Source: a virus
Virus record (IMG/VR): IMGVR_UViG_3300025324_000011
Span: 32,985-96,984 of that record
DNA: 64,000 nt
Reading direction: 5' to 3' (one strand)
Made by a program: the position numbers and the translations under genes. The notes beneath the pieces were generated by a model. It was not told where the DNA came from. It saw only the letters and a program-made list of their open reading frames with translations, and searched no databases. Below are positions 48 through 22,671 of the stretch, one piece after another (the first letter of the stretch is position 1; every line of letters begins with the position of its first letter).

Positions 48-266
48 ATGGATCGCCGCCCATCCAATAAAGTTGCGATTGAATACAATGGCGGATTACC
101 GAGGTATAAGGATGAACCGCATTTGATCCGGGCAATGAATCAATCGCTCGGCGTTGAAATCGAATATCAATTCTTCGGCCCTACCGCCTCATACGGCAGG
201 GCATTGCGAGACGAGAGAAGGCGCCGCCTTGATTACGCTGGACAAGCGATCCATTCAAACGCTTGA
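48..266 (+). CDS. hypothetical protein, probably 5'-truncated by window edge
   Basis: Frame is open back to position 3; ends at the first composite promoter. Confidence 0.4.
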   Translation: MDRRPSNKVAIEYNGGLPRYKDEPHLIRAMNQSLGVEIEYQFFGPTASYGRALRDERRRRLDYAGQAIHSNA

Positions 267-379
267 ATTCAATCCCGTGGATTTTGTCCAACTAATTGAA
301 CCGAGAAGCTCTAGACATAGCGCTTGGCGCGACGTAGGCCACTATATCTAGTGTTGGCGCTGTTGGCACGGTGTCTGCA
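254..379 (+). promoter_or_regulatory. composite promoter copy 1: palindrome pair + tandem NrdR-like boxes + sigma54 -24/-12
   Basis: TTCAAACGCTTGAA 254-267; TCCAACTAATTGAA 287-300; GCTCTAGACATAGCGC 308-323; CCACTATATCTAGTGT 339-354; TGGCACGGTGTCTGCA with GG at 365-366 and GC at 377-378. Confidence 0.8.
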
Positions 380-484
380 AGAGATATGGAGTGCGAGGCC
401 ACACCATGAACACGCTTCTCCAAGGCACAGAGAGCGCGCGAGAGCGGCGATCAGCTCGCAGTTGCGTTCGGCTGGAAGTATGCC

Positions 485-529
485 TGAGCCCTGCGGGTAG
501 GGGACCCGGTCCCCTGCCCGGAGCACTCA
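485..529 (+). other. 45-nt interrupted hairpin (TGAGCCC...GAGCACTCA), member of a repeated family
   Basis: Inner stem CGGGTAGGGGA/TCCCCTGCCCG; same ends and length as 23677-23721. Confidence 0.55.
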
Positions 530-566
530 AGCGCAAGAGCAGGACGCACGAAGAGGAGACCGGACA

Positions 567-776
567 ATGACATATCAAATCACGCGGCACAGCGGGACAA
601 GAAAATTCACCTGGGCGTGGTGCAACACACTGGAGGAAGCTGTCAGAATTGCAAATTCTGTCAGCATAAAAATTGTAGGAGAGCTGACCATCGTCGACTG
701 CAACACGGGCAAAAGATTCACGATTGCTCAAGCGATTGCTCAAGCGCAGGCCCGGAAAGAGCAGCTCGGAGCCTAG
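567..776 (+). CDS. small hypothetical early protein
   Basis: GAGGAG RBS upstream, 69 aa. Confidence 0.7.
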   Translation: MTYQITRHSGTRKFTWAWCNTLEEAVRIANSVSIKIVGELTIVDCNTGKRFTIAQAIAQAQARKEQLGA

Positions 777-1050
777 AACGACAAACCACAAGGATACTCA
801 ACTACTTTGCCAGTAATCCTACAGGGCACACCACCGCTCTAGGACCAGTAGTGCAAAGACTGTTGCTCAACACCGACGGACAAGTGTTACTCATGGGTAC
901 ACTGTACGAGATCAAAACCGAGCATATTGGGGCAGGTGTTTACAAGTTATCACTTAGACCTTGGAAATAATAGGTCCAATGTCACTGCTGATCGTGGCGA
1001 TAACCTACATCTCGGTCTGTCGAACGACAAACCACAAGGAGGAAGGTACC

Positions 1051-1248
1051 ATGAAAATCCATCCGTTGAAATCTGCAGACAAGGCATACAACTGTGGGAT
1101 TATCGACGAGCGCGAGGGTGAAGGCTTCTATCTCTACAAAATCTCTGCCGCGCACGAAGCAGAGTACGAAGCAGGACGTGAAGAAGAGCGAGAGAGGCGG
1201 GAGTACGAACGTAGGGGCAGAGTTATAGGCAGAATGTACAGACACTAG
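1051..1248 (+). CDS. small hypothetical early protein
   Basis: AAGGAGG RBS before ATG 1051. Confidence 0.7.
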   Translation: MKIHPLKSADKAYNCGIIDEREGEGFYLYKISAAHEAEYEAGREEERERREYERRGRVIGRMYRH

Positions 1249-1283
1249 GTTGACAAAGCAAACTGAGAAAAGGAGAACGACAA

Positions 1284-1460
1284 ATGATTGTCCGCTCGAA
1301 CCCAAGAAAGCACAAAGAAGGCTATGCAGTAGATCTATATAACGGCCAGTCGAAAGAGATCCGTCTAGCAACAGTGTACGGAGCCACAGTCGCAGAAGCT
1401 GTGAACCGTTCTAGGTGGATCATGAGATCGCTTGAGATACTTCTAGAGAGAGGATTTTGA
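1284..1460 (+). CDS. small hypothetical protein (58 aa, below ORF-track cutoff)
   Basis: AAGGAG RBS; MIVRSNPRKHKEGYAVDLY... Confidence 0.6.
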   Translation: MIVRSNPRKHKEGYAVDLYNGQSKEIRLATVYGATVAEAVNRSRWIMRSLEILLERGF

Positions 1461-1524
1461 CAACGGTTAGTAAAGTAGCCCAGCAAGATATCACACTGAA
1501 TCAGACGCAAAAAGGAGAAACGAA

Positions 1525-1770
1525 ATGTTGACCAGATACGATATCGTCGAAGAGGTCGAAGACAGCTCTCCACGCGAATGGAGAGTGCTAAGCAGAGACG
1601 AGACCGCACTACAGGCAGTGAAAACTCTAAGAGCTTTACGAAACATGAGTCCGTTAGCAAGGTTAGCTCGACGTGAGGCGTATGAGGCAGAGAAAGAGCA
1701 GGGCGTGTGCGATCGATTTGGTTACAGGTACTTTACGTCACTCGATCTCAATCGAGGTCTACGGCAGTGA
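1525..1770 (+). CDS. small hypothetical protein
   Basis: AAGGAG RBS; stop overlaps next start. Confidence 0.7.
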   Translation: MLTRYDIVEEVEDSSPREWRVLSRDETALQAVKTLRALRNMSPLARLARREAYEAEKEQGVCDRFGYRYFTSLDLNRGLRQ

Positions 1771-2240
1771 TGGACACCAGTGACCGTCGCCGAATGATCC
1801 ACTCCGGAGTCTGTCCTGCCTGTGGTGGCGACCTATCCGTCCGGGTACCTCGTAAGGTCAAGGTCTGTGCTCGGCATGGCGCCTGCGGCCGGCTATGGGG
1901 CCTCGACGGAGACGAGATCATACAGGACGAGCATCCAATCGAAGCGCCCGCAGGATTCGAGGCAGCACGCTGGTACTGCGCCGCGCAGGAACAGGCCCTG
2001 CTCGCCGATCCGGCCGGTCGGGAAGCTCGGAACGAATCCCGGCGGCGGCCGGACGCGCCGGCCTGGACGGCCTGCCCGGTCTGCTCTTACCCTCACCCGG
2101 GAGACCGCTGTGATAACCCCGGTTGCGTCGCCTCCGGCAACGTCCCGCCCGAGATCCAGGCCCGCCGGGAACGCGAAGCCGCGGAAGCGGCAGAGCGGGA
2201 GCGTTTTGCTCGCATTCGCTACGGGAAGGTGCTTTCATGA
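1770..2240 (+). CDS. Zn-finger hypothetical protein
   Basis: CPACGG, CPVC and CDNPGC motifs; TGATG coupling. Confidence 0.6.
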   Translation: MDTSDRRRMIHSGVCPACGGDLSVRVPRKVKVCARHGACGRLWGLDGDEIIQDEHPIEAPAGFEAARWYCAAQEQALLADPAGREARNESRRRPDAPAWTACPVCSYPHPGDRCDNPGCVASGNVPPEIQARREREAAEAAERERFARIRYGKVLS

Positions 2241-2358
2241 GACATCCCGTCTACGGACACCTCCACACTATCGCTGCCCGGCGTCCAGAGCGATTGTCCA
2301 GAAGTTTGAGAAAATCAACAAACGGCCGGCGTGCGGGCCGACAAGGGAGGAACTCAAA

Positions 2359-2586
2359 ATGGTCACTTTGAAAGCATTGAGACAGAGAGCAGAAGGACTA
2401 GCCCGCCACCGCGGGCACTCCTTGGCATGGGAGACACCATGGCAGGATGGTGAGCGCCAGTGTCAGAACGCCATCTGCTGGCACGGCAAATGCTTTGCCG
2501 AGGTGCAAATCATCACACGACCTTTGCCGAACGAGGCCGATGTTGGCGGATCCGGCGTCGCTGGGCCTTGTCCCTGTCGAGAGTGA
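2359..2586 (+). CDS. small Cys/His-rich hypothetical protein
   Basis: GGAGG RBS before ATG 2359. Confidence 0.6.
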   Translation: MVTLKALRQRAEGLARHRGHSLAWETPWQDGERQCQNAICWHGKCFAEVQIITRPLPNEADVGGSGVAGPCPCRE

Positions 2587-2643
2587 GACGCAATACGGGC
2601 CAGGATGTTCCCCTAGCGGGGAGAGTACGGCGGGATTGGCGAC

Positions 2644-2672
2644 TTGACGGCATGCCCGTCATGCTGTAAGGT
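2644..2672 (+). promoter_or_regulatory. sigma70-like promoter for the replication module
   Basis: TTGACG-17-TAAGGT, overlapping the imperfect palindrome TGACGGCATGCCCGTCA. Confidence 0.5.
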
Positions 2673-2711
2673 AGCGGGAAATGGGATTCACCGCAAAAAA
2701 GGAGGAGAACG

Positions 2712-4079
2712 ATGGCGACCGAATACGATGGTGCCAAACGGGTAGATGCGCAGCGCTATCCTTGGGAGGAATTTTCGCGCGTCAAGATTGACGCTGCGCG
2801 CTCCTGTCGATGGACAGGGGCGCAGGAAGACCCGGCGGTTTGGCGAAAATTCCTCGAGAGTCTCGTTGTCTCGGGGCAGATCCAGCCATGCGTTATGGCG
2901 AAGGTCCCCCCGAACAAGGAAATCCATCTTCTTGTCGGATCTCGCCGCTTCCTGGGGATCAAGGAAATCAATGAAAATCTGCCTGAGTGGCAGGCTTGGA
3001 TTGAGTCCAAGATCGAGGAAATTGCGAATCGCCTAGTCGCCGACACCACGCTCTCAGAGGCGCTCGCCGACGAATTGCATTCCTTGAAGCGTGTCTACGA
3101 GGACGCACGCAAGCGCATAGAAGTCCCGATGTCGCTCATCTTCATGTCGCGGCAGGTTAGGTCTCGGGAGGAGGCTGACCGTATTGCCTTGGAGGAAAAT
3201 GACAACAGGCTGGATATGTCGCCGATGGACCGTGCGAACTTCGCCTACACGAAAAAGCAGAGAGGGGAAACCAATCGCGAGATCGCCGTGGCGATGAAGC
3301 TCAAATCGGCAACCGCTGTCAAGAATCTTCTAGAATATATCAGTCTCATACCCGAGGCTCAGGAACTGCTTCATCAAGGGCATCTCACTGAGGCCCTAGC
3401 GGGAAGAATGAGGCGATTGCCAGCGGAGAGGCAACTAGAATTCTGTCTCGCCGCCAAGGAAGGCAAAAAGCCTTCGGAGCTTCTCAGACAAGCCAATTCT
3501 GAATCCCGCCTAGGTGGCGAACAGGTACTCCGTTCCGCCGCAGAGTTGCGTCAGAAACTCGCTGAAATCCGCAGTAAGGACGGAGACTTGATCGTAAAAA
3601 CCATTGCGGCTTGGCTACTGGAGTGGGTAAACGGGAATCCAGATGCCCCGGATCTGGAGACGATCTTCGCTGCCGACACTCTACCCGAGCCGCCGAAGCC
3701 TCCCGAGCCGAAACCGCCAAAGAGCCCAGGGGTTCCGAAGCCACCGAAGGTTCAAAAACCGAAGAAGGAAAAGAAAGCGAAAAAAGCTACTAGCGGTAAG
3801 CGGGGGCGCCCTCCCGGATCGAAGAACAAGAAACCGGCGCAGGCGGCATTACCGCTCCCCATGGATCCCGACGCCGACGCGCAGGAAGAATACGCTGACG
3901 ATGTCCCGGCAATTGAGCGCGCGGAAGACATCGAGGTTCTGGAAGCCGAAGACGATACGCGCATGATCAGCGCCAGGGGGCTCCTCGACCCCGACGCAGG
4001 GTATGCCGATCCCTTCGAGGATCGGTCAATCATGGAAGCATTCGGGGATTCTGCCGTAGCCCGCGAGTGGCAGTGCTGA
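2712..4079 (+). CDS. ParB/Spo0J-like protein with Pro/Lys-rich, AT-hook-like and acidic C-terminal tail
   Basis: GQIQP, LLVGSRR (GxRR motif), ALEENDNRLDMSPMDRA then an HTH; KRGRPPGSKNKK near the C-terminus. Confidence 0.85.
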   Translation: MATEYDGAKRVDAQRYPWEEFSRVKIDAARSCRWTGAQEDPAVWRKFLESLVVSGQIQPCVMAKVPPNKEIHLLVGSRRFLGIKEINENLPEWQAWIESKIEEIANRLVADTTLSEALADELHSLKRVYEDARKRIEVPMSLIFMSRQVRSREEADRIALEENDNRLDMSPMDRANFAYTKKQRGETNREIAVAMKLKSATAVKNLLEYISLIPEAQELLHQGHLTEALAGRMRRLPAERQLEFCLAAKEGKKPSELLRQANSESRLGGEQVLRSAAELRQKLAEIRSKDGDLIVKTIAAWLLEWVNGNPDAPDLETIFAADTLPEPPKPPEPKPPKSPGVPKPPKVQKPKKEKKAKKATSGKRGRPPGSKNKKPAQAALPLPMDPDADAQEEYADDVPAIERAEDIEVLEAEDDTRMISARGLLDPDAGYADPFEDRSIMEAFGDSAVAREWQC

Positions 4080-4258
4080 AAAGCGCGACCGCGGGTCAGG
4101 GGAAAGGGGGTGGTCAAGCAGCCGCCGTCAGCGACTTGGGCAAAGATCAGCGAGGCTGCAAAGGTGGAAAACGTGACGGGATCGCCGCATCGCAAAGAGA
4201 TGAATGACGGCTGCGACGATCAACTATGCTGGACATCCAGTGAGCGAAGAGGTGAGCA

Positions 4259-4612
4259 TTGACTATTCGCGAATTTATCTTGCATAAGGTGGTACGCATC
4301 TATAGTGCGGAGAAGGGTTGGTGGGGAGGCGTGCTACTGGCTGGAAATCAAGAGGAGCAAGCGGCGAAGCTCGCCGCAGCAGGAATCAAGCCTCTCGGGA
4401 GGTGCTCCGAATGTCATACCACCTACGTGCGAGACGGAGGCGATGCATGCGATCGATGCAATCCGCCAGCTGGCCGCCATGTCATTGGCGGGAAAATCGT
4501 AGTTTGTGCTGACGGTTGCAAGGTTTGCGCCGCCGAATCCAGCACTAAGGGTAAGAGCGCACACGTTCTTCCGCTGCGGCGCGAAGGGAAAACGAAAAAT
4601 GAGAGAGGTTGA
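4259..4612 (+). CDS. Cys-rich hypothetical protein
   Basis: CxxC pairs; GAGGTG RBS before TTG. Confidence 0.55.
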   Translation: MTIREFILHKVVRIYSAEKGWWGGVLLAGNQEEQAAKLAAAGIKPLGRCSECHTTYVRDGGDACDRCNPPAGRHVIGGKIVVCADGCKVCAAESSTKGKSAHVLPLRREGKTKNERG

Positions 4613-5048
4613 AGCCATCAGTTCTCGCCGCTCTGGCCGGGATTGCCAAGAGTCCCATCCAAGTCCCGCAAGCGGTCCATCGTGGTGGTGTTGCTCTGGC
4701 GACTATCCGGAGCATGATGCGACGTGCCAGAACCGCAAGCCTGAGTCTCCAGCGAGGCGGATTGATCCAATGCGCCGCAAGAGATTAGCAACTGATTTGC
4801 CGAACGGCGTGCCGCCTTGGGCACCGCTGCGCAGGGTTATTCGGCTTTCAGGTGGCCGCACGCCAGAGGCGGAGGCGGAGGCGCGGGATATCCTTATAGC
4901 CTGGGGACGGTCTCGCAATCTCAAAATGGGATCGCTCGAATCATTCGTCTTCCCGACTAAGCACGGGGGGCGTCGGATGCGAATCAATGGCGGGCGCGTC
5001 TATCTTGGGCCGGTGAATTGCACGGACTGGTACGCCGATTTCTCGTGA
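4599..5048 (+). CDS. hypothetical protein
   Basis: Overlap-coupled to both neighbours. Confidence 0.5.
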   Translation: MREVEAISSRRSGRDCQESHPSPASGPSWWCCSGDYPEHDATCQNRKPESPARRIDPMRRKRLATDLPNGVPPWAPLRRVIRLSGGRTPEAEAEARDILIAWGRSRNLKMGSLESFVFPTKHGGRRMRINGGRVYLGPVNCTDWYADFS

Positions 5049-5416
5049 TATATCTAGCGATTCCGATCAAACACAACAACCCCGAGATTGAAGGCGCGCG
5101 CATCGAATGTGCCAACCGAATCGCTGCGTTGTTTCATGATCGTGGAATTCCAGTGTTCTCGCCAGCCTCACATGGTGGCGCCTTCGCGCGTCACGGATCA
5201 AATGGACGCGGGTGGGATTATTGGAAAAAAATAGATCTTCCGATCCTTACTCTATGCTGCTCTAAAATGCTGATCGTCAAGATCCCGGGATGGCAAGAAT
5301 CGAGAGGAATCCAGGTCGAGAGAGCTGCTGCTATGGAAGTTGGAATTCCGATCGTTGAGATCATGCCGCATTATAAATTTATGCCTGAATTGATACGACA
5401 GCAGCTTGCATCCTGA
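5045..5416 (+). CDS. DUF1937 / nucleoside 2-deoxyribosyltransferase-like protein
   Basis: IYLAIP...VFSPASHG...YWKKIDLPIL...PGWQESRGIQVE motif set. Confidence 0.75.
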   Translation: MIYLAIPIKHNNPEIEGARIECANRIAALFHDRGIPVFSPASHGGAFARHGSNGRGWDYWKKIDLPILTLCCSKMLIVKIPGWQESRGIQVERAAAMEVGIPIVEIMPHYKFMPELIRQQLAS

Positions 5417-5441
5417 CGGCTAATGTGATAGGTTGTCAAGC

Positions 5442-6548
5442 ATGCGGATAAGAGTCCACAGGCAATCGCTCCTCTCCTCCTTGCAAAAACTTTCCCATCT
5501 CACGAAGGGAAAAACGCTCCCGTTGTTGAAAGACGTTCTACTGTACGCAGAGGGCGGCGATCTAATCGTCGCCGCAACTGACCTGGAGTCAACGGCGCTT
5601 CATCGCCATGATGAGGCAGTAGAATCCCCGGGACAGCCGTTTGCAATCGACCGCGAACGACTCGCGCGTGCAGTCGATGCCATGGGTGGCGAGGAAGTCA
5701 TCGCCGAGGTCGGAGATGGTTTCCTTAACCTCGGAGAGGGAATGACGATCAGGTTCATTCCAGCCGACGCGCCCAACTTTCCGACGCTTCCGTCTTGGGA
5801 GCCCGGTAGTCCCATAGCACTTCCATTTTCTCCCGTGGTTGCCGCCCTATCGCGGGCCTACCTATTTGCCTCAAAAGAGGAATCTCGTTCCGAGATTGCC
5901 TCTATCCAATTGACGACAGAGAAGAAAAAGGTTTCAGTCAGCAGCACGAACGGCAGGCGCCTATGGTATGAGTCGCTGCCGATTGACGATGCTGAATCGA
6001 CAGAATTTCTGATTCCCTCCTTCGCCGCAAAGCTGATCGATTCTCTCCCGTCATCGAAGGAGCTACGCTTGGCGAGAAGCGATGCCAGCCCAGGGCACAT
6101 TTATGTCTGGAGCGACGATTCCGAAAGGCTCATGATCAGGGCGTGGGAAGGAACATTTCCAAACGTAGAAACAATACTGAAACAGCAACCGGAGGCATCC
6201 TCATCATTCATTGCAGAGTCGGGGAGTGATCTTGTCTCTGCGCTACGAAGAGCGGCGGTTGTATCGCAAAACGCAAACCTGATCTGCGACAAAGATGGCC
6301 TCATGGTCGCCGCGTTCGGTGATGACACGGGCTCCGTCAGCGTAGCCGTTAGCGGAGAGAGCGAGACTGAGTTTGATCTCTCTCTTCCGATCGCTCAGCT
6401 CATAGAGACCTGCTCAGCGCTAGACGCAGGGAACGGAAATATCATCCTCCAGCATGCTTCTCTCGTGGGCGGGGGCGGAGGACCGCTATTCTTGACTTGC
6501 TCGGCGCATCCCGAGCGGATCTCCCTGGTTATGCCGATGCGGCGATAG
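5442..6548 (+). CDS. dnaN: DNA polymerase III beta sliding clamp homolog
   Basis: ATDLE, NFPTLP, STNGRRL, GTFPNVE and C-terminal LVMPMR; about 370 aa. Confidence 0.9.
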   Translation: MRIRVHRQSLLSSLQKLSHLTKGKTLPLLKDVLLYAEGGDLIVAATDLESTALHRHDEAVESPGQPFAIDRERLARAVDAMGGEEVIAEVGDGFLNLGEGMTIRFIPADAPNFPTLPSWEPGSPIALPFSPVVAALSRAYLFASKEESRSEIASIQLTTEKKKVSVSSTNGRRLWYESLPIDDAESTEFLIPSFAAKLIDSLPSSKELRLARSDASPGHIYVWSDDSERLMIRAWEGTFPNVETILKQQPEASSSFIAESGSDLVSALRRAAVVSQNANLICDKDGLMVAAFGDDTGSVSVAVSGESETEFDLSLPIAQLIETCSALDAGNGNIILQHASLVGGGGGPLFLTCSAHPERISLVMPMRR

Positions 6549-6555
6549 AGCGCGC

Positions 6556-7956
6556 ATGGACTACGAAGACTTTATTGCCTCGAAGGCAGCATCGCGTCGC
6601 TTCGAGGGGATCGAATCTACAGATCTTCCGAGCGTAATGTTCCCATTTCAAAGAGACTTGACTAAATGGGCGTTGCGAAGAGGAAGAGCTGCCATATTCG
6701 CCGGTACCGGTCTCGGTAAATCACTCATGGAGCTCGCGTGGGCAAGGGAAATCTCCAAGCTTGGCCGCGTGATCCTGGTTGCTCCGCTGGCCGTCGCTGA
6801 GCAAATGATCGGAGAGTCCAATAAATTCGATATTCCAGCGACATATACGCGGCGTGGCGAAAGATGCAGATCCCCAATAACAATCACCAATTATGAGCTT
6901 CTGCGGCATTTTAATGCAGATGATTTCGTCGGCGTAATTCTAGACGAATCAGGGATCATGAAGGACTTCACCGGCGCGATGCGCAACCTTTTAATCGAGA
7001 TGTTCGCCGAGACTCCGTATCGTCTCGCTTGTACCGCAACGCCGGCGCCTAACGATTACACAGAGCTAGGGAATCACTCGGAATTCCTTGGAATTAAAAC
7101 TAGAACAGAAATGCTGGCTGAGTATTTCGTTCACGACGGAGAGACGACGCAAGAATGGCGACTCAAGCGTCACGCCGAAAATGATTTCTGGCGATGGGTT
7201 TGCTCATGGGGAGCAATGATATCGCAGCCCTCTGATCTGGGATACGAGAATGAAGGCTTTGATCTCCCGCCGCTAAGAATGCACGATGTACGGGTTGACG
7301 TCGGAGATTCTGATTTCATGGCCGAGGGTTATCTTTTCCCGCCGGCCGCGCGAACGCTGAGCGATCAGCGAACGACGCGCAGGGCAACAAGAAATCAGAG
7401 GATCGGAGCGGCCGAAAAGATCCTGCTGAATCATCCGTCGAAGCCCGCAGTAGTTTGGTGCGAATTGAATACCGAGCAAGACGAAATGTCCGAGGCTCTT
7501 GGTTCTCGGGCGGTTTCAATCTACGGCTCTATGACCCCGGAGGAAAAGGTATCACTCCATCAAGAGTGGATCCGCGGATCGGTTCCATTCCTTGTCACAA
7601 AGGGATCGATCTTTGGGCATGGGATGAATTGGCAGCATTGTGCGCGCCAAGTGTTCCTGGGCTCCAGTCATTCCTTCGAGATGATCTATCAGTCTATCCG
7701 CAGGTGTTGGCGATTCGGACAGACAAGTCCAGTTGATATTTATATGATCTCGGCGGCCACGGAATCTGCAATCGTCGCAAATTATAGGCGCAAGGAAGCT
7801 GATTTCGCGCGAATGACGGGAGCGATGATCGAACATATGCGGGACACGATGCGCGCCGAGATCTCCTCGGCTCCGCGAGAGTGGAATGATTATACCGCCG
7901 AGGTTGATATGATCATCCCTGAATGGCTCAGGAGGGAAGAGTCGGCATGCGCGTAA
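6556..7956 (+). CDS. SF2 / SNF2-like helicase
   Basis: GTGLGKS (Walker A), ILDES, CTATP, QSIRRCWRFGQ. Confidence 0.9.
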   Translation: MDYEDFIASKAASRRFEGIESTDLPSVMFPFQRDLTKWALRRGRAAIFAGTGLGKSLMELAWAREISKLGRVILVAPLAVAEQMIGESNKFDIPATYTRRGERCRSPITITNYELLRHFNADDFVGVILDESGIMKDFTGAMRNLLIEMFAETPYRLACTATPAPNDYTELGNHSEFLGIKTRTEMLAEYFVHDGETTQEWRLKRHAENDFWRWVCSWGAMISQPSDLGYENEGFDLPPLRMHDVRVDVGDSDFMAEGYLFPPAARTLSDQRTTRRATRNQRIGAAEKILLNHPSKPAVVWCELNTEQDEMSEALGSRAVSIYGSMTPEEKVSLHQEWIRGSVPFLVTKGSIFGHGMNWQHCARQVFLGSSHSFEMIYQSIRRCWRFGQTSPVDIYMISAATESAIVANYRRKEADFARMTGAMIEHMRDTMRAEISSAPREWNDYTAEVDMIIPEWLRREESACA

Positions 7957-8951
7957 TCGATCAGGGGGGAGGCGCATCGTTCACAGCGTATCGCGGAGAT
8001 TGCGTTGAGATTGTGCGCGGAATACCAGATTGCTCAATAGATTATTCTATTTTCTCTCCGCCCTTCGCCTCATTGTACACTTATTCTGCGTCTCCGCGAG
8101 ATCTCGGTAACTGCAAGACGCATGAAGAATTCGCTGCGCACTTCAGGTATCTTATTCCTGAATTATTTCGCGTGACCAAGAACGGTAGACTCCTTTCATT
8201 CCATTGTATGGTATTGCCTACATCGAAGGTCAGAGACGGCGTTATCGGTCTTACCGATTTCCGCGGGAATCTCATAAGGGACTTCACTGAGTGCGGCTGG
8301 ATTCATCATTCAGAGGTAGTGATTTGGAAAGATCCCGTAACGGCCATGCAGCGGACAAAGGCTCTCGGATTGCTCCACAAGCAGATCGTGAAAGACAGCG
8401 CTATGGGTCGCCAGGGAATTCCAGACTATCTCATTACAATGAGAAAGCCCGGCGTCAACGAGGAGCCGATTCCTGAATGCTTCGATCGCTATTTTGGAGA
8501 AGATCCAGCGCCAACCGATCCCTATACCACGGATTTCCATACTCGCAACCCCTACTCAATCGCGGTGTGGCAACGTTACGCCTCTCCTGTGTGGATGGAC
8601 ATCAAGCCAAGCGATACCTTGCAATACAGGTCTGCTCGCGAGCATGCGGATGAACGGCACATAGCGCCCTTGCAGCTTACGGTTATACGGAGAGCCGTTG
8701 AGTTATGGACAAACCCCGGCGACGTAGTCCTTTCGCCGTTCTCTGGCATTGGCTCCGAGGGCGTTGTCTCGCTGGAAATGCAGCGCAGATTTATCGGAAT
8801 TGAATTGAAGAAATCATATTACGAGCAAGGGGTCAGGAATCTGCAAGCGGCAGAATCGCAACAAGGGTCGATGTTTCCAGATTCCGTTAGGGGCTACGCA
8901 GGCGAGATAGCCACTGATCTGGTGGATGACAAAGACGAGGGCGACGATTAA
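7947..8951 (+). CDS. DNA amino-methyltransferase (N4C/N6A, beta class)
   Basis: FSPPF catalytic motif precedes SPFSGIGS SAM-binding motif. Confidence 0.9.
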   Translation: MRVIDQGGGASFTAYRGDCVEIVRGIPDCSIDYSIFSPPFASLYTYSASPRDLGNCKTHEEFAAHFRYLIPELFRVTKNGRLLSFHCMVLPTSKVRDGVIGLTDFRGNLIRDFTECGWIHHSEVVIWKDPVTAMQRTKALGLLHKQIVKDSAMGRQGIPDYLITMRKPGVNEEPIPECFDRYFGEDPAPTDPYTTDFHTRNPYSIAVWQRYASPVWMDIKPSDTLQYRSAREHADERHIAPLQLTVIRRAVELWTNPGDVVLSPFSGIGSEGVVSLEMQRRFIGIELKKSYYEQGVRNLQAAESQQGSMFPDSVRGYAGEIATDLVDDKDEGDD

Positions 8952-9274
8952 GGCTGACCGTCCATACCGAACGCTTCGGCTATCAAGTGGCGAACGCAGG
9001 TTCCGATTGGGACGCCTCGTTGCGCTGCGGCCCTTGACAACTTATCGCTCAGGCTTTCCGAGATCTCGACTTGGATGCGCTTGGTTCCACGTGTCGGATC
9101 TGCCGGCAATCTCCTGTATGCCATCGGATCGTAAGATGGCCGGTGCTTCTTGACGATCGCGTGCGCAGTCTGACGCGAGCATTGAATGCCGCGTTTTTGC
9201 AGGCGCTTGGCAATACGCGATGCCACGACTTCGCCAGCATCAAACTCCTGCAATATATAGACCCGAAGGTTCAT
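8948..9274 (-). CDS. putative DNA-binding regulator (C-terminal ribbon-helix-helix-like)
   Basis: KRIQVEISESLSDKLSRAAAQRGVPIGTCVRHLI; divergent from a TTGACA-18-TAAGAT promoter at about 9323-9352. Confidence 0.6.
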   Translation of the reverse strand: MNLRVYILQEFDAGEVVASRIAKRLQKRGIQCSRQTAHAIVKKHRPSYDPMAYRRLPADPTRGTKRIQVEISESLSDKLSRAAAQRGVPIGTCVRHLIAEAFGMDGQP

Positions 9275-9374
9275 CGCATGGTAATCTTACAATAATGAGG
9301 ACAATAACGTCAACCCGAGAACTTGACAAGGTATACGGCAACGCGGTAAGATTCGAGACACGGGAGGAAACCAA

Positions 9375-9713
9375 ATGAAGAGGCATATCGTAATCGTTCT
9401 TAGCGCCATCTTGGCAATTGCCATCCTCATGATCTGCTATGGGACAGACAAGAGTCTACATCAACGAGCCCATGAAGCGAACGACGGAGAGGCGCTCTGC
9501 GGATTTTTCTGGCCGCAAGGCGGCACAGCGCCGCATCCTCATCCTGTCAAATTTAGCATTACCACTTCCTTGCGTGAGGTGTCGCTCCGGCTTCCGGATG
9601 ACATCGTCACGCTCCGAAAGTGTCGAGCCGATACTTCGCTAAGAGAACTTCGAGAACGAGATTACGAGGATCTGCTACAGACAGCACGCGGCGGTGGCAA
9701 GGAGGAAAAATGA
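9375..9713 (+). CDS. membrane-anchored hypothetical protein
   Basis: GGAGG RBS; N-terminal hydrophobic helix. Confidence 0.65.
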   Translation: MKRHIVIVLSAILAIAILMICYGTDKSLHQRAHEANDGEALCGFFWPQGGTAPHPHPVKFSITTSLREVSLRLPDDIVTLRKCRADTSLRELRERDYEDLLQTARGGGKEEK

Positions 9714-10015
9714 AGGGAATCTACAGATTTAATTTCGATTGTGGCCGAGACGGCAATCTGCTCGGCATCTTCGTCTCGACACCCGATGATTTAGAGAAGC
9801 GGTACGGCAGGGAATTAGACTTTGGCTACGCTCTCGGGAAGTATAGTGAGATATATGGAGAGCTAGAACCGCGCCATGTCACCCTCGTGACCGACGATCC
9901 GAAAGCTGTAGCCATCTTCGAGAAGTACAAACTGGAGACCGGGAGAACGCCGTTCAATGACTACTCCGTAGACGAAGACCAAGACATAGACGACGAAGAT
10001 ATTTCAGAGGAGTAA
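9710..10015 (+). CDS. hypothetical phage protein with acidic tail
   Basis: AGGAGG RBS; ATGA overlap. Confidence 0.7.
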   Translation: MKGIYRFNFDCGRDGNLLGIFVSTPDDLEKRYGRELDFGYALGKYSEIYGELEPRHVTLVTDDPKAVAIFEKYKLETGRTPFNDYSVDEDQDIDDEDISEE

Positions 10016-10123
10016 TCGCCTGCGCCTACTAATCGTTGACGGTATAGTAAGGGAAATGCGGGGATGGTTAACTGCCGGTCTCTTTGCATAGACAATGTTC
10101 CAGACCTGCCTAATGGAGGTTGC

Positions 10124-11035
10124 ATGAGTGATGGAGCGAGCTTCGGGGACAGACTGCGAGCTGCGTCTGATTTCGCTTTTCTGGATGGCGTTGCCATCGC
10201 TATTGACCATGACGCAGAGAAATTGCGTGCGGAACGTGATGCATGGAAAGAAGCGGCCAGAGCTTGCGCCGATAACAGGGAAGTCCACCTCAGGGACAAT
10301 TGCCTGCTCATTCGGCGAAAGTTACTTGCGGATGTTTTGACAAGCGGGTGGTGTGATCGCTGCGAGGCAAGACTACGCAGGATGATCGATCGCATCCTGC
10401 CAGACGAGACATCCGATCCAGGTATCCAGTACCCAGTAGAAGAGACTTCTGCTTGCGACACGCACCTAGCAATCGATACAGGGAGACCACCGAGTGCGCC
10501 AGTTATCGCATTTTTTACTGGTCAGCACCGGTTTCTGTCAAACTTTTGGCCGTGCGAGGTCACCGGCCCTGGTGGCCTCATATATCCCAGCGTTGAGCAT
10601 GCCTACCAAGCCTATAAGTCAACATCTCCAGACGACTGGGCAGCGATTCATATGGCAATCTCACCAGGATTTGCCAGAAGCATGGGACGCTCGATACCAC
10701 GGGCTAGGTTTGATCCAGATTGGGATGACAAATGTCTGTCCATCATGGAGGAGCTACTACGACAGAAGTTCAGCCAGCCACCACTGAGAGATTATCTCTG
10801 TGCCACAGAGCCAGCGACGCTTATCGAAGGCAACACCTGGCGAGACCGGTTCTGGGGAGTGTATAACGGGAAGGGTGAGAACCATTTAGGCAGACTGCTC
10901 ATGCGCATCAGGGCCGATGCATCACGCAGCATCAATCCAACGGACTGGCCTGGGGGCGTGCCGTCAGATCCGCGTCCCTACCTGGAAGGGCATCCGCTGT
11001 CAGAGGATGAGGTAGCGCGCGGCCAGGCGCTTTAA
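10124..11035 (+). CDS. NADAR (YbiA-like) domain protein with N-terminal extension
   Basis: FLSNFW, YPSVEHAYQAYK, LRQKFSQ, LIEGNTWRDRFWG, GENHLGRLLMRIR. Confidence 0.9.
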   Translation: MSDGASFGDRLRAASDFAFLDGVAIAIDHDAEKLRAERDAWKEAARACADNREVHLRDNCLLIRRKLLADVLTSGWCDRCEARLRRMIDRILPDETSDPGIQYPVEETSACDTHLAIDTGRPPSAPVIAFFTGQHRFLSNFWPCEVTGPGGLIYPSVEHAYQAYKSTSPDDWAAIHMAISPGFARSMGRSIPRARFDPDWDDKCLSIMEELLRQKFSQPPLRDYLCATEPATLIEGNTWRDRFWGVYNGKGENHLGRLLMRIRADASRSINPTDWPGGVPSDPRPYLEGHPLSEDEVARGQAL

Positions 11036-11259
11036 GGGAGCATCCCGGACTCGGATGGCGGCCAGCCCAACTGCCCGCTAAGAACCGTCTTGCGTCCCTG
11101 TATGTGTGACCTGCCGCGGTGTCCAAGGTGCAACTACACGAAGCACGACGCGGCCTTCGAACTTGACCATGACATGTGCCCTGGAACAATTCCCCTAGAC
11201 ACGCTCGATGGCGCCGGGCGCGATGGCGCCGGGCCAAGGGACGGAACGGAGTGGGATGC

Positions 11260-11505
11260 ATGAACGCTATTGAAGAATGGCTATCAGGCTGGGTGGCTGG
11301 AGAGGCTGCGGGATGCGCTGCATGCGCCAATCTTGTACGGTCGGCTGGATGCATTTGTAGATCGCTTCGGAAAGCCAACGACTTCCGCGGCACCATGAAG
11401 CCGATCGGCGCACGGGCCACCATGGGAAGGGATGGGGAGTGGACCATCGGTGAGCATGATCCTCGCTGCCCGGAGGCCCTTGCTGCGGATATAGAAGCAC
11501 AATAG
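11260..11505 (+). CDS. small Cys-containing hypothetical protein
   Basis: ORF in operon orientation. Confidence 0.45.
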   Translation: MNAIEEWLSGWVAGEAAGCAACANLVRSAGCICRSLRKANDFRGTMKPIGARATMGRDGEWTIGEHDPRCPEALAADIEAQ

Positions 11506-11535
11506 TGAATTGCTGAATGGGTAGGGCTGAAGCCG

Positions 11536-12030
11536 ATGATGCAGTGGGTGATTAGCAACCGCGCCGACCAGAAAACAAGAGAGATAGCTGATCGTCATTA
11601 TAACAGACAAAAAATCGGTTCGCCGCAGTTCGTTCCGCCTGGAAGGTGTGTCGTGCTAGTTACATTAGCGAAAGATGCGTTCTGGGTTACTTCGTGGCCG
11701 TTCGCACAATACGTGAAACATTCATGGGCTGGCGCTTGGGTGTGCTCGGCATTTAGGAACGAAAGCAAGACACTTTCAAGCCTATTGATTATTGAGGCGC
11801 TCGCGGCTACGCGGTTCATCTTTGGAGATCCGCCGACGAATGGCTGCGTCACGTTCGTTGATCCATCGAAAGTGCGGAAGAAGCGCGATCCCGGAAGGTG
11901 CTTCCTGCGCGCCGGATTCGTGCATGCTATTCCGCCGCAGACCAAGGGCGGCCTACTGGCATTCCAAATGTTGCCAGAGAATATTCCGAATGCAGTGCCG
12001 CCAGTTGGCCTTCAACTCTATTTATTCTGA
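11536..12030 (+). CDS. conserved phage protein, possibly Mom-like/GNAT-fold DNA modifier
   Basis: ADRHYNRQKIGSPQFVPPGR, WVCSAFRNES, TFVDPSKV, PGRCFLRAGF resemble the Mom/GNAT pattern. Confidence 0.6.
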   Translation: MMQWVISNRADQKTREIADRHYNRQKIGSPQFVPPGRCVVLVTLAKDAFWVTSWPFAQYVKHSWAGAWVCSAFRNESKTLSSLLIIEALAATRFIFGDPPTNGCVTFVDPSKVRKKRDPGRCFLRAGFVHAIPPQTKGGLLAFQMLPENIPNAVPPVGLQLYLF

Positions 12031-12041
12031 AAGATCAAATC

Positions 12042-12806
12042 ATGCGCCTGCTGCTCGTTGATGGCACCAACGCCGTTCTCCGTTACGCCGCCGCTATGAT
12101 CGGAGATCTTCGCGCCGAGTCAGTGCCAGACGCTGATTCCCTACGCGTCCTATCAGCGGTAGAGCGCGCGATCCGTCAATGCGCCGCGATTGCTCATTGC
12201 GACCATGCGATCATCGCCTTCGACGCCGCGGAGGGGACATGGCGCCGCGAGCTATTCTCTGAATACAAGAAGGGGCGGAAAAAGATCCCCTTCCCATGGT
12301 CTGCTGGTCTTTCTCGATTTCTCGCGGACGGTGGATGGTTTTGCTCGGTCGCCCCGGGATTCGAGGCAGACGATATTATTGCGACTATGGCGCGACGAAG
12401 CATCGACGCAGGCCATAGAGTTGCCGTGCTTTCCTCGGATTCAGACCTTCTCCAGTTGGCCTCCGAGTGGTGTTCGATTTACCAATACAGCAGCGGAGAG
12501 GTGCGCTTCGTTCTGCGAAATCCGCAATGGATCGCGGAGCACTACGGTATCCGCGACGTTTGGCAACTCGCCTATTACAAGGCGCTGGTAGGCGAGCTAG
12601 GAGATGGCCTTCCAGGAGTCCCCGGGATCGGTCCGAAGCGAGCGCTGCATCTCATGGCGCAATATCCCTCGGCCAAGGACCTATCGTCCTCCAGGGCGCT
12701 TCCTGCGAAGGATTTGGCCCGCTTTAGACGGATGCTTGAGCTTGTGACGCTGCGAGAGGATGTTCCGCTGGCGCCGCTGATTCCGATGGTCTGCAGGGTA
12801 CCCTGA
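12042..12806 (+). CDS. 5'-3' exonuclease / flap endonuclease (PolA N-terminal-like)
   Basis: LLVDGTN, AFD, YKKGR, FEADDII, SSDSDLLQL, PGVPGIGPKRA (HhH). Confidence 0.92.
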   Translation: MRLLLVDGTNAVLRYAAAMIGDLRAESVPDADSLRVLSAVERAIRQCAAIAHCDHAIIAFDAAEGTWRRELFSEYKKGRKKIPFPWSAGLSRFLADGGWFCSVAPGFEADDIIATMARRSIDAGHRVAVLSSDSDLLQLASEWCSIYQYSSGEVRFVLRNPQWIAEHYGIRDVWQLAYYKALVGELGDGLPGVPGIGPKRALHLMAQYPSAKDLSSSRALPAKDLARFRRMLELVTLREDVPLAPLIPMVCRVP

Positions 12807-21120: not shown

Positions 21121-21182
21121 GGTTGACGCCTCCCGCGTAACATGCTAACATAGGACCGCCATGAGATGCAAGCGCCAACAGA

Positions 21183-21307
21183 TCCAACGCCTTGAATCCA
21201 AGTTTCCGTAGAGATCCAAGGAAATGGACTGACCGGCGCTAGATCTAGTGCATGAGGCCATAGACACCACTATATGTTGTGTTGGCGCTGTTGGCACAGG
21301 TGCTGCA
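21183..21307 (+). promoter_or_regulatory. composite promoter copy 2
   Basis: TCCAACGCCTTGAA 21183; TCCAAGGAAATGGA 21215; GCGCTAGATCTAGTGC 21236; CCACTATATGTTGTGT 21267; GG at 21293, N10, GC at 21305. Confidence 0.85.
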
Positions 21308-21379: not shown

Positions 21380-21562
21380 ATGAGACTGACCAAGGCAGAC
21401 CACGAGAAGATTAACAAGCTGGCTGACAAGTACTACGATTGCCGCGACCGAGAGGGCAGGACGCACGAAGAGGCAGTCTCTGAGGTCTTCGAGCTGTCAT
21501 CTGAGATTAGTGCATCTATGCACCTTGTCCGGATCACTCTTTCTACTATTGCAGTGGTCTAA
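21380..21562 (+). CDS. small early protein
   Basis: GAGGA RBS; first ORF after promoter copy 2. Confidence 0.6.
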   Translation: MRLTKADHEKINKLADKYYDCRDREGRTHEEAVSEVFELSSEISASMHLVRITLSTIAVV

Positions 21563-21597
21563 ACCGACCAACCAGCGCGGATTAAGGAGATGATGTC

Positions 21598-22017
21598 ATG
21601 AGCATTCTCGCATACCGCGACTTCGTCCCTGGTGTAACCGTCAAGCTTACGGGTAACTTCCTCATCTCAACAGGACAACGCAAAGGCGGCGAAGGCTCAA
21701 AGCGTTGGACAGTCTTAGCCTGCACTTGCGGTCTATGCCGTAGCAACAAACATGTTGCAGTCAATGAGCCTTCAATGTCAATCTTCACTCCAGAGGAGAT
21801 AGCTAAAGAGCCCAGGATTGTCCATCGTCACATTGCAAAAGAGAACCTCGCGATTGTCGGACAATTGGACCATCGTAACTGTGGAGATGTCTATGCAGGG
21901 CAGACGATGGAGGGGCTCATAGCAGGGAGAAAGCCTCTAGGATCAAGGCCGATAGATACAGAGCCCGAGCCTGAGACTAAGCCTGCAAAGCCATGCCCCG
22001 ATGAACAGGAGGCTTGA
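21598..22017 (+). CDS. hypothetical protein
   Basis: TAAGGAG RBS; CTCGLC. Confidence 0.7.
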   Translation: MSILAYRDFVPGVTVKLTGNFLISTGQRKGGEGSKRWTVLACTCGLCRSNKHVAVNEPSMSIFTPEEIAKEPRIVHRHIAKENLAIVGQLDHRNCGDVYAGQTMEGLIAGRKPLGSRPIDTEPEPETKPAKPCPDEQEA

Positions 22018-22022
22018 AGTAG

Positions 22023-22253
22023 ATGTCAACCACAATTAACACTATCCGAGAATTCAAAGCAAGATCTGTCTCGCTTTTTGAGAATAACAACTACCTCCAA
22101 CGCGGAACCACTATTACGTGGCGTGGAGCCAGGAAGACAACTTGGCGCGGCGGATCATCTGGATTCAGTGGGGAGTTCGAAGTCTCACATCCGTCACACA
22201 AAACTGTCCTTATTGTAGCATCTTACGACGATGAAGGACTAACAATAAGATGA
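22023..22253 (+). CDS. hypothetical protein
   Basis: AGGAGG upstream. Confidence 0.55.
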   Translation: MSTTINTIREFKARSVSLFENNNYLQRGTTITWRGARKTTWRGGSSGFSGEFEVSHPSHKTVLIVASYDDEGLTIR

Positions 22254-22398
22254 GCCAAAATGCTCTGCCGTGTTATATCCTCTGCCGAACCCCCACCTTG
22301 CGCGCCCATGCCGCCGCCGATGTCGTTGCTCCCGCAAGCCTAGAAGAGGTCGCTGAGGGGGTGCTTGAAATTCTTCGCGCGAGCATGGAGGGTGCGCC

Positions 22399-22665: not shown

Positions 22666-22671
22666 GATCGC

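What the first reader, a model, noticed from the sequence alone, without database searches (positions are those of the whole stretch)
254..379. Phage early promoters combining tandem NrdR boxes with a sigma54 promoter, in three copies
Seen in sequence: three loci (254-379, 21183-21307, 27469-27594) share one architecture. Palindrome pair 32-33 bp apart; box 1 starts 21 bp after the start of the second palindrome; box 2 is exactly 31 bp after box 1; the GG is 26 bp after the start of box 2, within GTGTTGGCGCWGTTGGCA; then GG-N10-GC. Box 2 (CCACTATATCTAGTGT, CCACTATATGTTGTGT, CCACCATATGTGGTGT) matches the NrdR consensus acaCwAtATaTwGtgt at 12-14 of 16 positions. Established: NrdR is the ATP/dATP-sensing repressor of ribonucleotide reductase genes and binds box pairs about 31-32 bp apart; TGGCAC-N5-TTGC is the sigma54 promoter. 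No RNR gene lies downstream here; each copy heads a block of small early genes. Inference: the phage gates early transcription on host dNTP status, and/or titrates NrdR to derepress host RNR. I know of no described phage promoter of this type, but I could not search the literature.
Basis: partly seen in the sequence, partly recalled or inferred. Interest (0 to 1): 0.92.

Follow-up and report, generated by a model that had tools for sequence, protein, structure and literature searches.

The report
NrdR-gated sigma54 phage promoters
An uncultured 97-kb tailed phage starts three gene blocks from near-identical control regions that join a sigma-54-type promoter and enhancer-like palindromes to a textbook binding site for NrdR, the bacterial sensor of DNA-precursor levels, so it probably ties these genes to the host's dNTP state.

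Summary
Three non-coding modules (254-379, 21183-21307, 27469-27594, all + strand) share one layout, with constant spacing and diverged spacers.

- **Core promoter:** TTGGCAY-N5-CTGCA, a near-consensus sigma54 -24/-12 element. GG-N10-GC is invariant and the N5 between is random.
- **Boxes:** against published experimental NrdR criteria (PMC13584703), box 2 has 6/6 conserved positions in all three copies. Box 1 has 5/6, 6/6 and 5/6, and the linker is 15 bp. P1 and P2 meet every sequence criterion; P3 box 1 is weak.
- **Palindromes:** two TCCAA-N4-TTGGA sites, 32-33 bp apart at about -136 and -103, sit where enhancer sites lie.
- **Phage genome:** no sigma54, activator ATPase, NrdR or ribonucleotide reductase gene was found.
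- **Recurrence:** IMG/VR scans found textbook NrdR pairs next to sigma54 cores in at least two other lineages, plus one weaker case. A scrambled-core control found none.

Sigma54 use by a phage has a precedent (Pseudomonas phage YuA). I found no paper on NrdR sites at phage non-RNR promoters. Earlier AI notes of this scan report NrdR boxes and sigma54 cassettes, separately, in other phages.

The host, the activator and the direction of NrdR's effect are unknown, and nothing is shown experimentally. Verdict: real, a new variant of known parts, interesting.

The parts
254..267 (+). P1 palindrome 1 (TTCAA-N4-TTGAA), candidate enhancer/UAS site, about -136 from the predicted TSS; overlaps the stop of the PurA-like gene (ends 266)
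287..300 (+). P1 palindrome 2 (TCCAA-N4-TTGAA), candidate UAS site, about -103
308..323 (+). P1 NrdR-type box 1 GCTCTAGACATAGCGC; 5/6 conserved positions (T9 is C), C4/A6/T11/G13 present, AT 6/8
   Evidence: criteria
339..354 (+). P1 NrdR-type box 2 CCACTATATCTAGTGT; 6/6 conserved positions, 14/16 to consensus, differs at 2 positions from E. coli nrdAB box 1
352..360 (+). P1 conserved 9-mer TGTTGGCGC between box 2 and the -24 element; not explained by NrdR or sigma54 consensus
363..379 (+). P1 sigma54-type core TTGGCACGGTGTCTGCA (GG 365-366, GC 377-378); predicted TSS near 390
21172..21180 (-). Fourth, inverted copy of TGTTGGCGC just left of the P2 enhancer, facing the divergent minus-strand gene 20827-21120
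21183..21196 (+). P2 palindrome 1 (TCCAA-N4-TTGAA)
21215..21228 (+). P2 palindrome 2 (TCCAA-N4-ATGGA)
21236..21251 (+). P2 NrdR-type box 1 GCGCTAGATCTAGTGC; 6/6 conserved positions, AT 6/8
21267..21282 (+). P2 NrdR-type box 2 CCACTATATGTTGTGT; 6/6, 14/16 to consensus
21291..21307 (+). P2 sigma54-type core TTGGCACAGGTGCTGCA; predicted TSS near 21318; first gene 21380-21562
27469..27482 (+). P3 palindrome 1 (TCCAA-N4-TTGGA, perfect; 16-bp ATCCAATTCCTTGGAT)
27502..27515 (+). P3 palindrome 2 (TCCAG-N4-TTGGA)
27523..27538 (+). P3 NrdR-type box 1 ATCCTAGATGCGGTAG; 5/6, lacks T11, AT 4/8: weak box
27554..27569 (+). P3 NrdR-type box 2 CCACCATATGTGGTGT; 6/6, AT 5/8 (borderline)
27578..27594 (+). P3 sigma54-type core TTGGCATGATGGCTGCA; predicted TSS near 27605; first gene 27649-27888
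406..12806 (+). Genes downstream of P1: small ORFs, then ParB-HTH-like (2712-4079), sliding clamp (5442-6548), helicase (6556-7956), DNA methylase (7947-8951), NADAR (10064-11035), exonuclease (11898-12806)
21380..27457 (+). About 16 genes of unknown function downstream of P2
27649..29596 (+). Small genes of unknown function downstream of P3

Best explanation
The three modules are paralogous, enhancer-dependent sigma54 promoters read by the host's RNA polymerase.

Proposed mechanism (inferred):
- A host enhancer-binding ATPase, not encoded by the phage and not identified, binds the two TCCAA-N4-TTGGA palindromes. These lie three helical turns apart at about -136 and -103.
- That activator loops to the closed complex at TTGGCAY-N5-CTGCA.
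- Between enhancer and core, at -82 to -36, lies a complete NrdR operator: two 16-bp boxes with a 15-bp linker.
- When dATP and ATP are both bound, the host NrdR tetramer would occupy and sharply bend this DNA. That would block activator contact or closed-complex formation.
- When dATP falls, or phage genome copies outnumber NrdR, the promoters open.
- The many phage-borne operators would also draw NrdR off the host nrd operons. This phage needs those operons because it has no RNR.

Shown: the sequence architecture, its conservation pattern, its fit to published criteria, its recurrence in other phages, and the absence of the relevant genes from the phage.

Inferred: every binding event, the TSS, the sign of NrdR's effect and the timing.
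For: Sigma54 core:
- GG and GC are invariant at exactly N10. TTGGCAY is 90% and CTGCA 100% conserved, while the N5 between them is at chance (33% pairwise, no invariant column).
- There are 3 exact matches to TGGCAY-N5-YTGCW in the genome, all in non-coding gaps upstream of same-strand genes.
- No conserved sigma70-type -35/-10 pair is present (plus inspection).
- No phage RNA polymerase turned up among the roughly 70 ORFs scanned with Pfam or PHROGs. The 1996-aa protein is a tape measure.

NrdR operator:
- The criteria of PMC13584703 are met by P1 and P2. Box 2 is 6/6 in all three copies and the linker is 15 bp.
- The linker sequence is at chance (29% identity), as in natural sites.
- The variable positions in box 2 are 5, 10 and 12, which are non-critical for NrdR.
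- Genome-wide rarity is shown.
- P1 box 2 differs at 2 of 16 positions from E. coli nrdAB box 1, which is experimentally bound.

Enhancer: the palindrome pairs are confined to the modules and sit at classical UAS distance.

Host factors needed: no PF00158, sigma54 DNA-binding domain, ATP-cone, TIGR00244, or RNR large or small subunit in the phage.

Recurrence:
- Independent phage contigs carry 6/6 + 6/6 NrdR pairs 7-20 bp upstream of TGGCATG-N4-TTGCA. These are G004, a complete 37-kb genome with direct terminal repeats and the promoter at nt 461, and G003, a complete 45-kb genome.
- L114 carries a 5/6 + 6/6 pair at the same 26-bp offset as here.
- A scrambled-core control scan gave no textbook pair.

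Precedent: YuA depends on host sigma54 (PMC5053324; PMC10914365).
Against:
- The host is unknown, so the presence of rpoN, nrdR and a matching activator cannot be checked.
- No activator that binds TCCAA-N4-TTGGA is known to me or was found in the literature search.
- The three copies are paralogues, so their statistics are not independent.
- No relative of this phage carries the module. There were 78 helicase-related loci with sigma54 matches at chance level (3 observed, about 4 expected), and one locus related to the gene beside P3.
- P3 box 1 fails two NrdR criteria.
- Known NrdR sites lie at RNR promoters and usually overlap sigma70 elements. None is described at a sigma54 promoter.
- The conserved TGTTGGCGC next to the -24 element is unexplained and may mean that a further factor, or a different reader of this DNA, is involved.
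- The recurrence counts are small.
Confidence: 0.5

Rival explanations
1. The sigma54 promoters and enhancer are real, but the boxes are operators for another protein, either a phage-encoded repressor or another host factor. Their likeness to NrdR boxes would then be convergent, as with any AT-centred CAC...GTG palindrome.
For: P3 box 1 is a poor NrdR box. The P2 and P3 blocks are full of small proteins of unknown function that could include a repressor. No RNR gene is nearby. Box 1 matches the full 16-mer consensus at only 8-11 of 16.
Against: Both boxes carry the NrdR-critical bases at the NrdR-specific 15-bp linker in all three copies. The same box type and linker occur next to sigma54 cores in phages with very different sequence and base composition. 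That fits a universal host protein better than a lineage-specific phage repressor. No Pfam DNA-binding domain was found in the neighbouring genes.
Confidence: 0.2
2. The core is not a sigma54 promoter. The conserved 31 bp from box 2 to TTGGCAY, plus CTGCA, would be read by a sigma70-family or phage-modified polymerase, or would bind sigma54 holoenzyme only as a trap or roadblock without transcription.
For: No activator gene is in the phage and none is known for the palindromes. TGTTGGCGC immediately upstream of -24 is 93% conserved yet is not part of the sigma54 consensus. A weak TTGGCA-N15/16-TAKGGA reading exists. Relatives by helicase show no sigma54 sites.
Against: The sigma70 reading has a variable spacer (16, 15, 16), lacks the -7 T, and leaves the invariant CTGCA unexplained. 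The sigma54 spacing is exact and the N5 is free to vary. The sigma70 scan finds nothing on the + strand. Other phages pair the same NrdR site with even better sigma54 cores, TGGCACGGTGCTTGCT and TGGCATGAAAATTGCA.
Confidence: 0.15
3. The main function is as a decoy. The phage-borne NrdR operators, three per genome and multiplied by replication, titrate NrdR and derepress the host nrd operons to feed phage DNA synthesis. Control of the phage promoters would be secondary.
For: The phage has a 97-kb genome and no RNR of its own. There are three full operators per genome. NrdR needs both boxes and binds heterologous sites.
Against: The operators sit at a fixed distance from a promoter core in this phage and in the other lineages. 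A pure decoy would not need that. A decoy would also be expected as arrays rather than one pair per promoter.
Confidence: 0.1
4. The TCCAA-N4-TTGGA palindromes are operators or centromere-like sites for the phage's own ParB-HTH-like protein (2712-4079). That protein would act like KorB of plasmid RK2 or SopB of phage N15 (both recalled from memory) and regulate the three promoters. They would not be sites for a host enhancer-binding ATPase.
For: The first large gene downstream of P1 has weak ParB-type HTH matches (PHROG E = 1.6e-5, Pfam HTH_ParB E = 0.006). It has no homologue among 5.8 billion proteins, as might be expected of a lineage-specific regulator of lineage-specific sites. From memory, scattered palindromic ParB-type sites at promoters are known in N15 and RK2.
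Against: No ParB N-terminal domain and no ParA is present in the genome. A sigma54 promoter still needs an AAA+ activator. The paired sites, three turns apart at -100 to -140, match enhancer geometry.
Confidence: 0.12

Closest known systems
NrdR operators of bacterial ribonucleotide reductase promoters (E. coli nrdAB, nrdHIEF, nrdDG; S. coelicolor nrdAB, nrdRJ; PMC13584703, PMC9110341, PMC12051234)
   Same: Two partly palindromic 16-bp boxes with a 15-bp linker of free sequence. C4, A6, A8, T9, T11 and G13 are conserved, and the centre is AT-rich. P1 box 2 differs from E. coli nrdAB box 1 at 2 of 16 positions.
   Different: The sites are on a phage with no RNR gene, upstream of replication genes and unknown genes. 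They lie between an enhancer and a sigma54 core rather than over sigma70 elements. There are three copies per genome. Binding is untested.
Sigma54-dependent promoters of Pseudomonas aeruginosa phage YuA (Ceyssens et al. 2008, as cited in PMC5053324 and PMC10914365)
   Same: A siphovirus without its own RNA polymerase that carries -24/-12 promoters and relies on host sigma54.
   Different: From my recall of the abstract, the YuA promoters serve the particle-formation and lysis region. No NrdR boxes are described there, and there is no sequence relationship. Here the promoters head replication and small-gene blocks and carry a defined paired enhancer. I could not read the original paper.
Classical enhancer-dependent sigma54 promoters with an architectural site between UAS and core (glnAp2 with two NtrC sites about 32 bp apart; nifH and pspA with IHF)
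   Same: Two dyad-symmetric sites three turns apart at about -100 to -140, a protein-induced bend site at -40 to -80, and a -24/-12 core. The E. coli pspA core was seen.
   Different: The middle site is an NrdR operator, not an IHF site. The UAS sequence matches no activator I know. The E. coli PspF UAS region is unrelated.
Uncultured phage contigs found here: G004/G002/G006 (group A), G003/G005 (group B) and L114 (G007)
   Same: An NrdR-type box pair (linker 15-16) directly upstream of a near-consensus sigma54 core. Small unknown genes lie downstream, not RNR. The two complete genomes have no activator ATPase gene.
   Different: The sequences are unrelated and the base composition is lower. 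The offset from box 2 to GG is 24 or 37 bp (26 in L114). The upstream repeats differ, and there is a single copy per genome where the genome is complete.

Membership tests
NrdR operator | Two 16-bp boxes; a single box is not bound | tested here: met
   Two boxes in each of the three modules; criterion from PMC13584703
NrdR operator | Linker of 15-16 bp (or 26-27 bp), with free sequence | tested here: met
   Linker is 15 bp in all three; linker identity is 29%, at chance
NrdR operator | C4 and G13 present, 8 bp apart, in both boxes | tested here: met
   All six boxes
NrdR operator | A6 and T11 present | tested here: inconclusive
   Five of six boxes meet it; P3 box 1 has C at position 11
NrdR operator | At least 63% A+T between C4 and G13 | tested here: inconclusive
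   Values are 7/8, 7/8 and 5/8 for box 2, and 6/8, 6/8 and 4/8 for box 1. P3 box 1 fails (sequences)
NrdR operator | Located at a ribonucleotide reductase (or nrdR) promoter | tested here: not met
   No RNR large or small subunit and no nrdR anywhere in the phage. Downstream genes are replication and unknown genes
NrdR operator | dATP/ATP-dependent binding by NrdR | not testable with these tools
   Needs EMSA or MST
Sigma54 (-24/-12) promoter | GG and GC dinucleotides separated by exactly 10 nt within TGGCAC-N5-TTGCW | tested here: met
   TTGGCACGGTGTCTGCA, TTGGCACAGGTGCTGCA, TTGGCATGATGGCTGCA
Sigma54 (-24/-12) promoter | Upstream activator sites at about -80 to -150 | tested here: met
   Paired palindromes at about -136 and -103, found almost only in the modules. 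That they bind an activator is inferred
Sigma54 (-24/-12) promoter | A cognate AAA+ enhancer-binding protein and rpoN available in the cell | not testable with these tools
   Neither is encoded by the phage; the host is unknown
Sigma54 (-24/-12) promoter | Transcription start about 12 nt downstream of GC, rpoN-dependent | not testable with these tools
ParB/parS or KorB-type operator system (for the palindromes) | ParB N-terminal (CTP-binding) domain protein, usually with ParA | tested here: not met
   No PF02195 match. PF13614 gave only a sub-threshold hit (11.8 bits, E = 0.01). There is only a weak HTH_ParB match in 2712-4079

The most novel reading that the evidence does not exclude
NrdR may act here as the architectural co-activator of a sigma54 promoter, not as a repressor. 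Its operator sits exactly where IHF sits in classical sigma54 promoters (-82 to -36), and no IHF site is evident. NrdR is reported to bend DNA sharply at each box (PMC13584703). The dATP/ATP-loaded tetramer could therefore deliver the enhancer-bound activator to the polymerase. The phage would then switch on replication and accessory genes only when the dNTP supply is adequate. This would be a positive, nucleotide-sensing role never described for NrdR, and it may be shared by several phage lineages.
Probability: 0.1. Interest if true: 0.9.

Novelty: new variant of a known kind. Interest (0 to 1): 0.7.

Why it matters
NrdR is described as a repressor dedicated to ribonucleotide reductase genes. 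Sigma54 use by phages is regarded as rare.

If these modules work as read, the phage wires its replication and accessory genes to two host signals at once. One is an enhancer-binding activator; the other is the dATP/ATP ratio. The phage could also relieve repression of the host's own dNTP synthesis by soaking up NrdR.

The same pairing turns up in other, unrelated uncultured phages. That suggests a general and so far undescribed way for phages to sense or manipulate precursor supply.

The idea is directly testable, because NrdR proteins from E. coli and S. coelicolor bind heterologous sites.

Tried and rejected
**Scans for homologous modules elsewhere**
- The 18-mer in IMG/VR gave 14 hits, all chance coding matches.
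- The 28-nt core pattern gave 3 hits in genome contigs and 1 in metagenome contigs, again chance coding matches.

**Relatives of the phage**
- megablast and blastn against phages found nothing.
- The PurA-like query gave one distant hit.
- The helicase query gave 78 loci at 35-54% identity, with sigma54 matches at chance level.
- The gene beside P3 gave one locus without a module.
- The major capsid query gave none.
- The ParB-like protein has no homologue in 5.8 billion proteins.

**Host identification**
- Capsid and terminase hits are to phages of Proteobacteria, at only 24-31% identity.
- The clamp in the protein atlas was uninformative.
- The phage carries one tRNA-Lys.
An E. coli record cannot serve as a centre for taxon-wide searches.
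- The host remains unknown.

**Tools unavailable:** So there were no RNA reads and no sample information.

**Alternative readings rejected**
- Sigma70 promoter: only a 9/12 match, on the opposite strand.
- IHF site: no WATCAANNNNTTR by inspection.
- DnaA boxes: the best half-site is 7/9, in one copy only.
- E. coli PspF UAS: no likeness.
- A possible fourth sigma54 site at genome position 17110 lies inside an ORF.
- Replication origin or packaging site: unlikely, given three dispersed, directional copies upstream of gene blocks.

**Other checks**
- Rfam found only the tRNA. The P1 leader fold is not significant (z = -1.8).
- A literature search for a TCCAA/TTGGA-binding activator found nothing.
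- The original YuA paper is not held.

Full report
**Setting.** The window is bases 32985-96984 of a 96,984-bp IMG/VR virus record, estimated 95% complete. It is a siphovirus. It has a 1996-aa tape-measure protein, HK97-type capsid, portal and protease genes on the minus strand. Replication genes lie on the plus strand: a ParB-HTH-like protein, a sliding clamp, a helicase, methylases and an exonuclease. It has no close relative in the cultured-phage collection. Its ParB-like protein has no homologue at all among 5.8 billion proteins.

**The observation.**
- Each module lies in a non-coding gap upstream of plus-strand genes.
- Anchored on the GG of the -24 element, the three copies align without gaps from palindrome 2 to the core.
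- Conservation is a mosaic:

| Segment | Mean pairwise identity |
|---|---|
| Upstream flank | 26% |
| Palindrome 1 | 57% |
| Palindrome 2 | 76% |
| Spacer 2 | 24% |
| Box 1 | 54% (invariant C4 T5 A6 G7 A8 G13) |
| Linker | 29% |
| Box 2 | 85% |
| TGGCGCWGT | 93% |
| TTGGCAY | 90% |
| N5 | 33%, no invariant column |
| CTGCA | 100% |

- Unconstrained positions have therefore randomised, while motifs and distances were kept. This is the signature of selection on protein-binding sites.
- The 18-mer around the -24 element occurs three times in the genome and nowhere else.

**Sigma54.**
- The cores TTGGCACGGTGTCTGCA, TTGGCACAGGTGCTGCA and TTGGCATGATGGCTGCA fit YTGGCACG-N4-TTGCW. The only departures are a C for the first T of the -12 element and, in P3, T for C.
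- GG-N10-GC is exact.
- Only these three sites in 97 kb match TGGCAY-N5-YTGCW exactly.
- A sigma70 reading fails. There is no conserved -35/-10 pair on the plus strand. The best alternative, TTGGCA-N15/16-TAKGGA, has a variable spacer and leaves the invariant CTGCA unexplained.
- No phage RNA polymerase, sigma54 or activator ATPase was found.
- Host sigma54 use by a phage is rare but proven for Pseudomonas phage YuA (PMC5053324; PMC10914365).

**NrdR.** A 2026 mutational study (PMC13584703) sets out what a functional site needs:
- two 16-bp boxes, because one box alone is not bound;
- a linker of 15-16 bp whose sequence is free;
- C4 and G13, which are critical, and A6 and T11, which are important;
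- at least 63% A+T between C4 and G13.

A8 and T9 are conserved but tolerant of change.

The phage boxes score as follows:
- Box 2 has all six conserved bases in all three copies.
- Box 1 has 5, 6 and 5 of the six.
- The linker is 15 bp in all three, and its sequence is at chance identity.
- P1 and P2 meet every sequence criterion.
- P3 box 1 lacks T11 and has 50% A+T, so P3 is probably a weaker site.
- The positions that vary in box 2 (5, 10, 12) are ones the study found non-critical.

Genome-wide, pairs with at least 11 of 12 conserved bases number three, which are the modules, against 0.46 expected. The 12/12 class is one against 0.02. Only box 2 of P1 and P2 match the 16-mer consensus with two or fewer mismatches. 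P1 box 2 differs at two positions from E. coli nrdAB box 1, which I read directly from the K-12 genome. So the NrdR reading, which I first doubted because box 1 fits the full consensus poorly, stands up to the experimental definition. The phage has no NrdR, ATP-cone or RNR gene.

**Enhancer-like palindromes.** TCCAA-N4-TTGGA with at most one mismatch occurs seven times in the genome, five of them in the modules. The pairs are 32-33 bp apart, centred near -129 and -96. This is the geometry of NtrC-type enhancers (from general knowledge). I could not match the sequence to any known activator. The E. coli PspF UAS is unrelated, and a text search gave nothing. The phage's own ParB-HTH-like protein is a possible alternative binder, but the genome has no ParB N-terminal domain or ParA.

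**Recurrence elsewhere.** No relative of this phage shares the module. I therefore scanned IMG/VR for the generic design.
- With this phage's spacing fixed and only one box required, the 14 hits were about the chance number. One of them, L114, has a second box 31 bp upstream (5/6; it shares AGATGCGGTA with P3 box 1). It also has a perfect core, TGGCACGGTGCTTGCT. Its 549-aa ORF is unrelated to our terminase.
- With a strict box 2, a relaxed box 1 and a 5-35 bp gap to the core, about 1.6 hits are expected by chance. I found seven contigs in three groups.
- Two groups are textbook. The first is CTACTACATCTAGTAC-16-CTACTAYATATAGTAC, then 20 bp, then TGGCATGAATGTTGCA. The second is ATACTATATGTTGTGT-16-CCCCTATATATTGGGT, then 7 bp, then TGGCATGAAAATTGCA.
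- Each of these groups includes a complete genome with direct terminal repeats. The promoter lies within 0.5-1.7 kb of a genome end and is followed by small unknown genes, not RNR. Neither complete genome has an activator gene.
- A control scan with a scrambled core of the same composition gave three hits, none with two good boxes.
- The numbers are small, but the composite is evidently not peculiar to this phage.
- Earlier AI notes of this scan list NrdR boxes on non-RNR phage promoters and sigma54 enhancer cassettes in other phages, separately. I treat them as leads only.

**Mechanism.**
[quoted passage not shown] NrdR bends DNA sharply at each box.
- Inferred: bound between enhancer and core (-82 to -36), NrdR most likely hinders looping or closed-complex formation. 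The promoters would then open when dATP falls or when replicating phage DNA outnumbers NrdR.
- The same operators would then draw NrdR off the host nrd operons, which the RNR-less phage depends on.
- The opposite sign cannot be excluded: NrdR as an IHF-like helper, occupying the usual IHF position.
- 'Early' timing is unproven. P1 heads the replication module.

**Unexplained.** TGTTGGCGC abuts each -24 element, forming a 9-bp tandem with TGTTGGCAC. A fourth, inverted copy sits just left of the P2 enhancer, facing the divergent gene (four copies against 0.7 expected). L114 lacks it. It may bind a further factor.

**Limits.**
- The host is unknown.
- All binding is inferred.

**Verdict.** This is a new variant built from two known kinds of element, and it recurs in several uncultured phages.

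Noticed in passing
window 17829-18245 (-): A stand-alone 138-aa membrane protein matches Pfam ETR1_N, the ethylene-receptor N-terminal copper/ethylene-binding domain, at E = 1e-18. It has no output domain and sits among small membrane ORFs.
   Followed up: partly
window 1-266 (gene = L019:15045-16250 +): The gene ending inside P1's first palindrome is an adenylosuccinate synthetase homologue (Pfam E = 3e-56). Its best solved relatives are canonical PurA enzymes (E about 1e-29). I did not test whether it is a PurZ-type enzyme for 2-aminoadenine DNA. If it were, A-T-rich operator recognition on phage DNA would be affected.
   Followed up: partly
L018:17550-19797 (+), outside the window: A CCA-adding/poly(A) polymerase-type nucleotidyltransferase with an HD domain is followed by an RlaP (RNA-repair-pathway pol-beta family) protein.
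   Followed up: no
window 539-556 and 21456-21473: An exact 18-nt repeat, GCAGGACGCACGAAGAGG. One copy is in the P1 leader just before the 567 start codon. The other is inside the first gene downstream of P2.
   Followed up: no
window 21172-21180 (-): A fourth copy of the 9-mer TGTTGGCGC, inverted, abuts the P2 enhancer and is followed by TTGCAT. It looks like a truncated leftward -24/-12 (GG-N5-GC, too short for sigma54) facing the divergent 97-aa gene.
   Followed up: partly
window 494-520: A 12-bp GC-rich hairpin (GGGTAGGGGACC-CGG-GGTCCCCTGCCC) with no T-run lies in the roughly 175-nt P1 leader, after a possible 26-codon ORF (406-486). The whole-leader fold is not significant.
   Followed up: partly
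L130 (G004:1-1976) and L132 (G003:41995-45010, - strand): Two complete phages with direct terminal repeats (37 and 45 kb) have textbook NrdR box pairs, each with a third box of 5/6, directly upstream of a sigma54 core near a genome end. Group B also has a GTGACA-N5-TGTCAC palindrome upstream. Group A has repeated TAGTNAGCA motifs.
   Followed up: partly
L117:10060-10210 (+): A 160-kb phage contig has a sigma54 core, TTGGCACGGTTTTTGCT, preceded by repeated ATGCAAYATATTGCAT palindromes. This is a different enhancer type, not an NrdR pair.
   Followed up: no
window 20388-20460 (-): A single tRNA-Lys (CTT) lies between the lysis-like block and P2.
   Followed up: no
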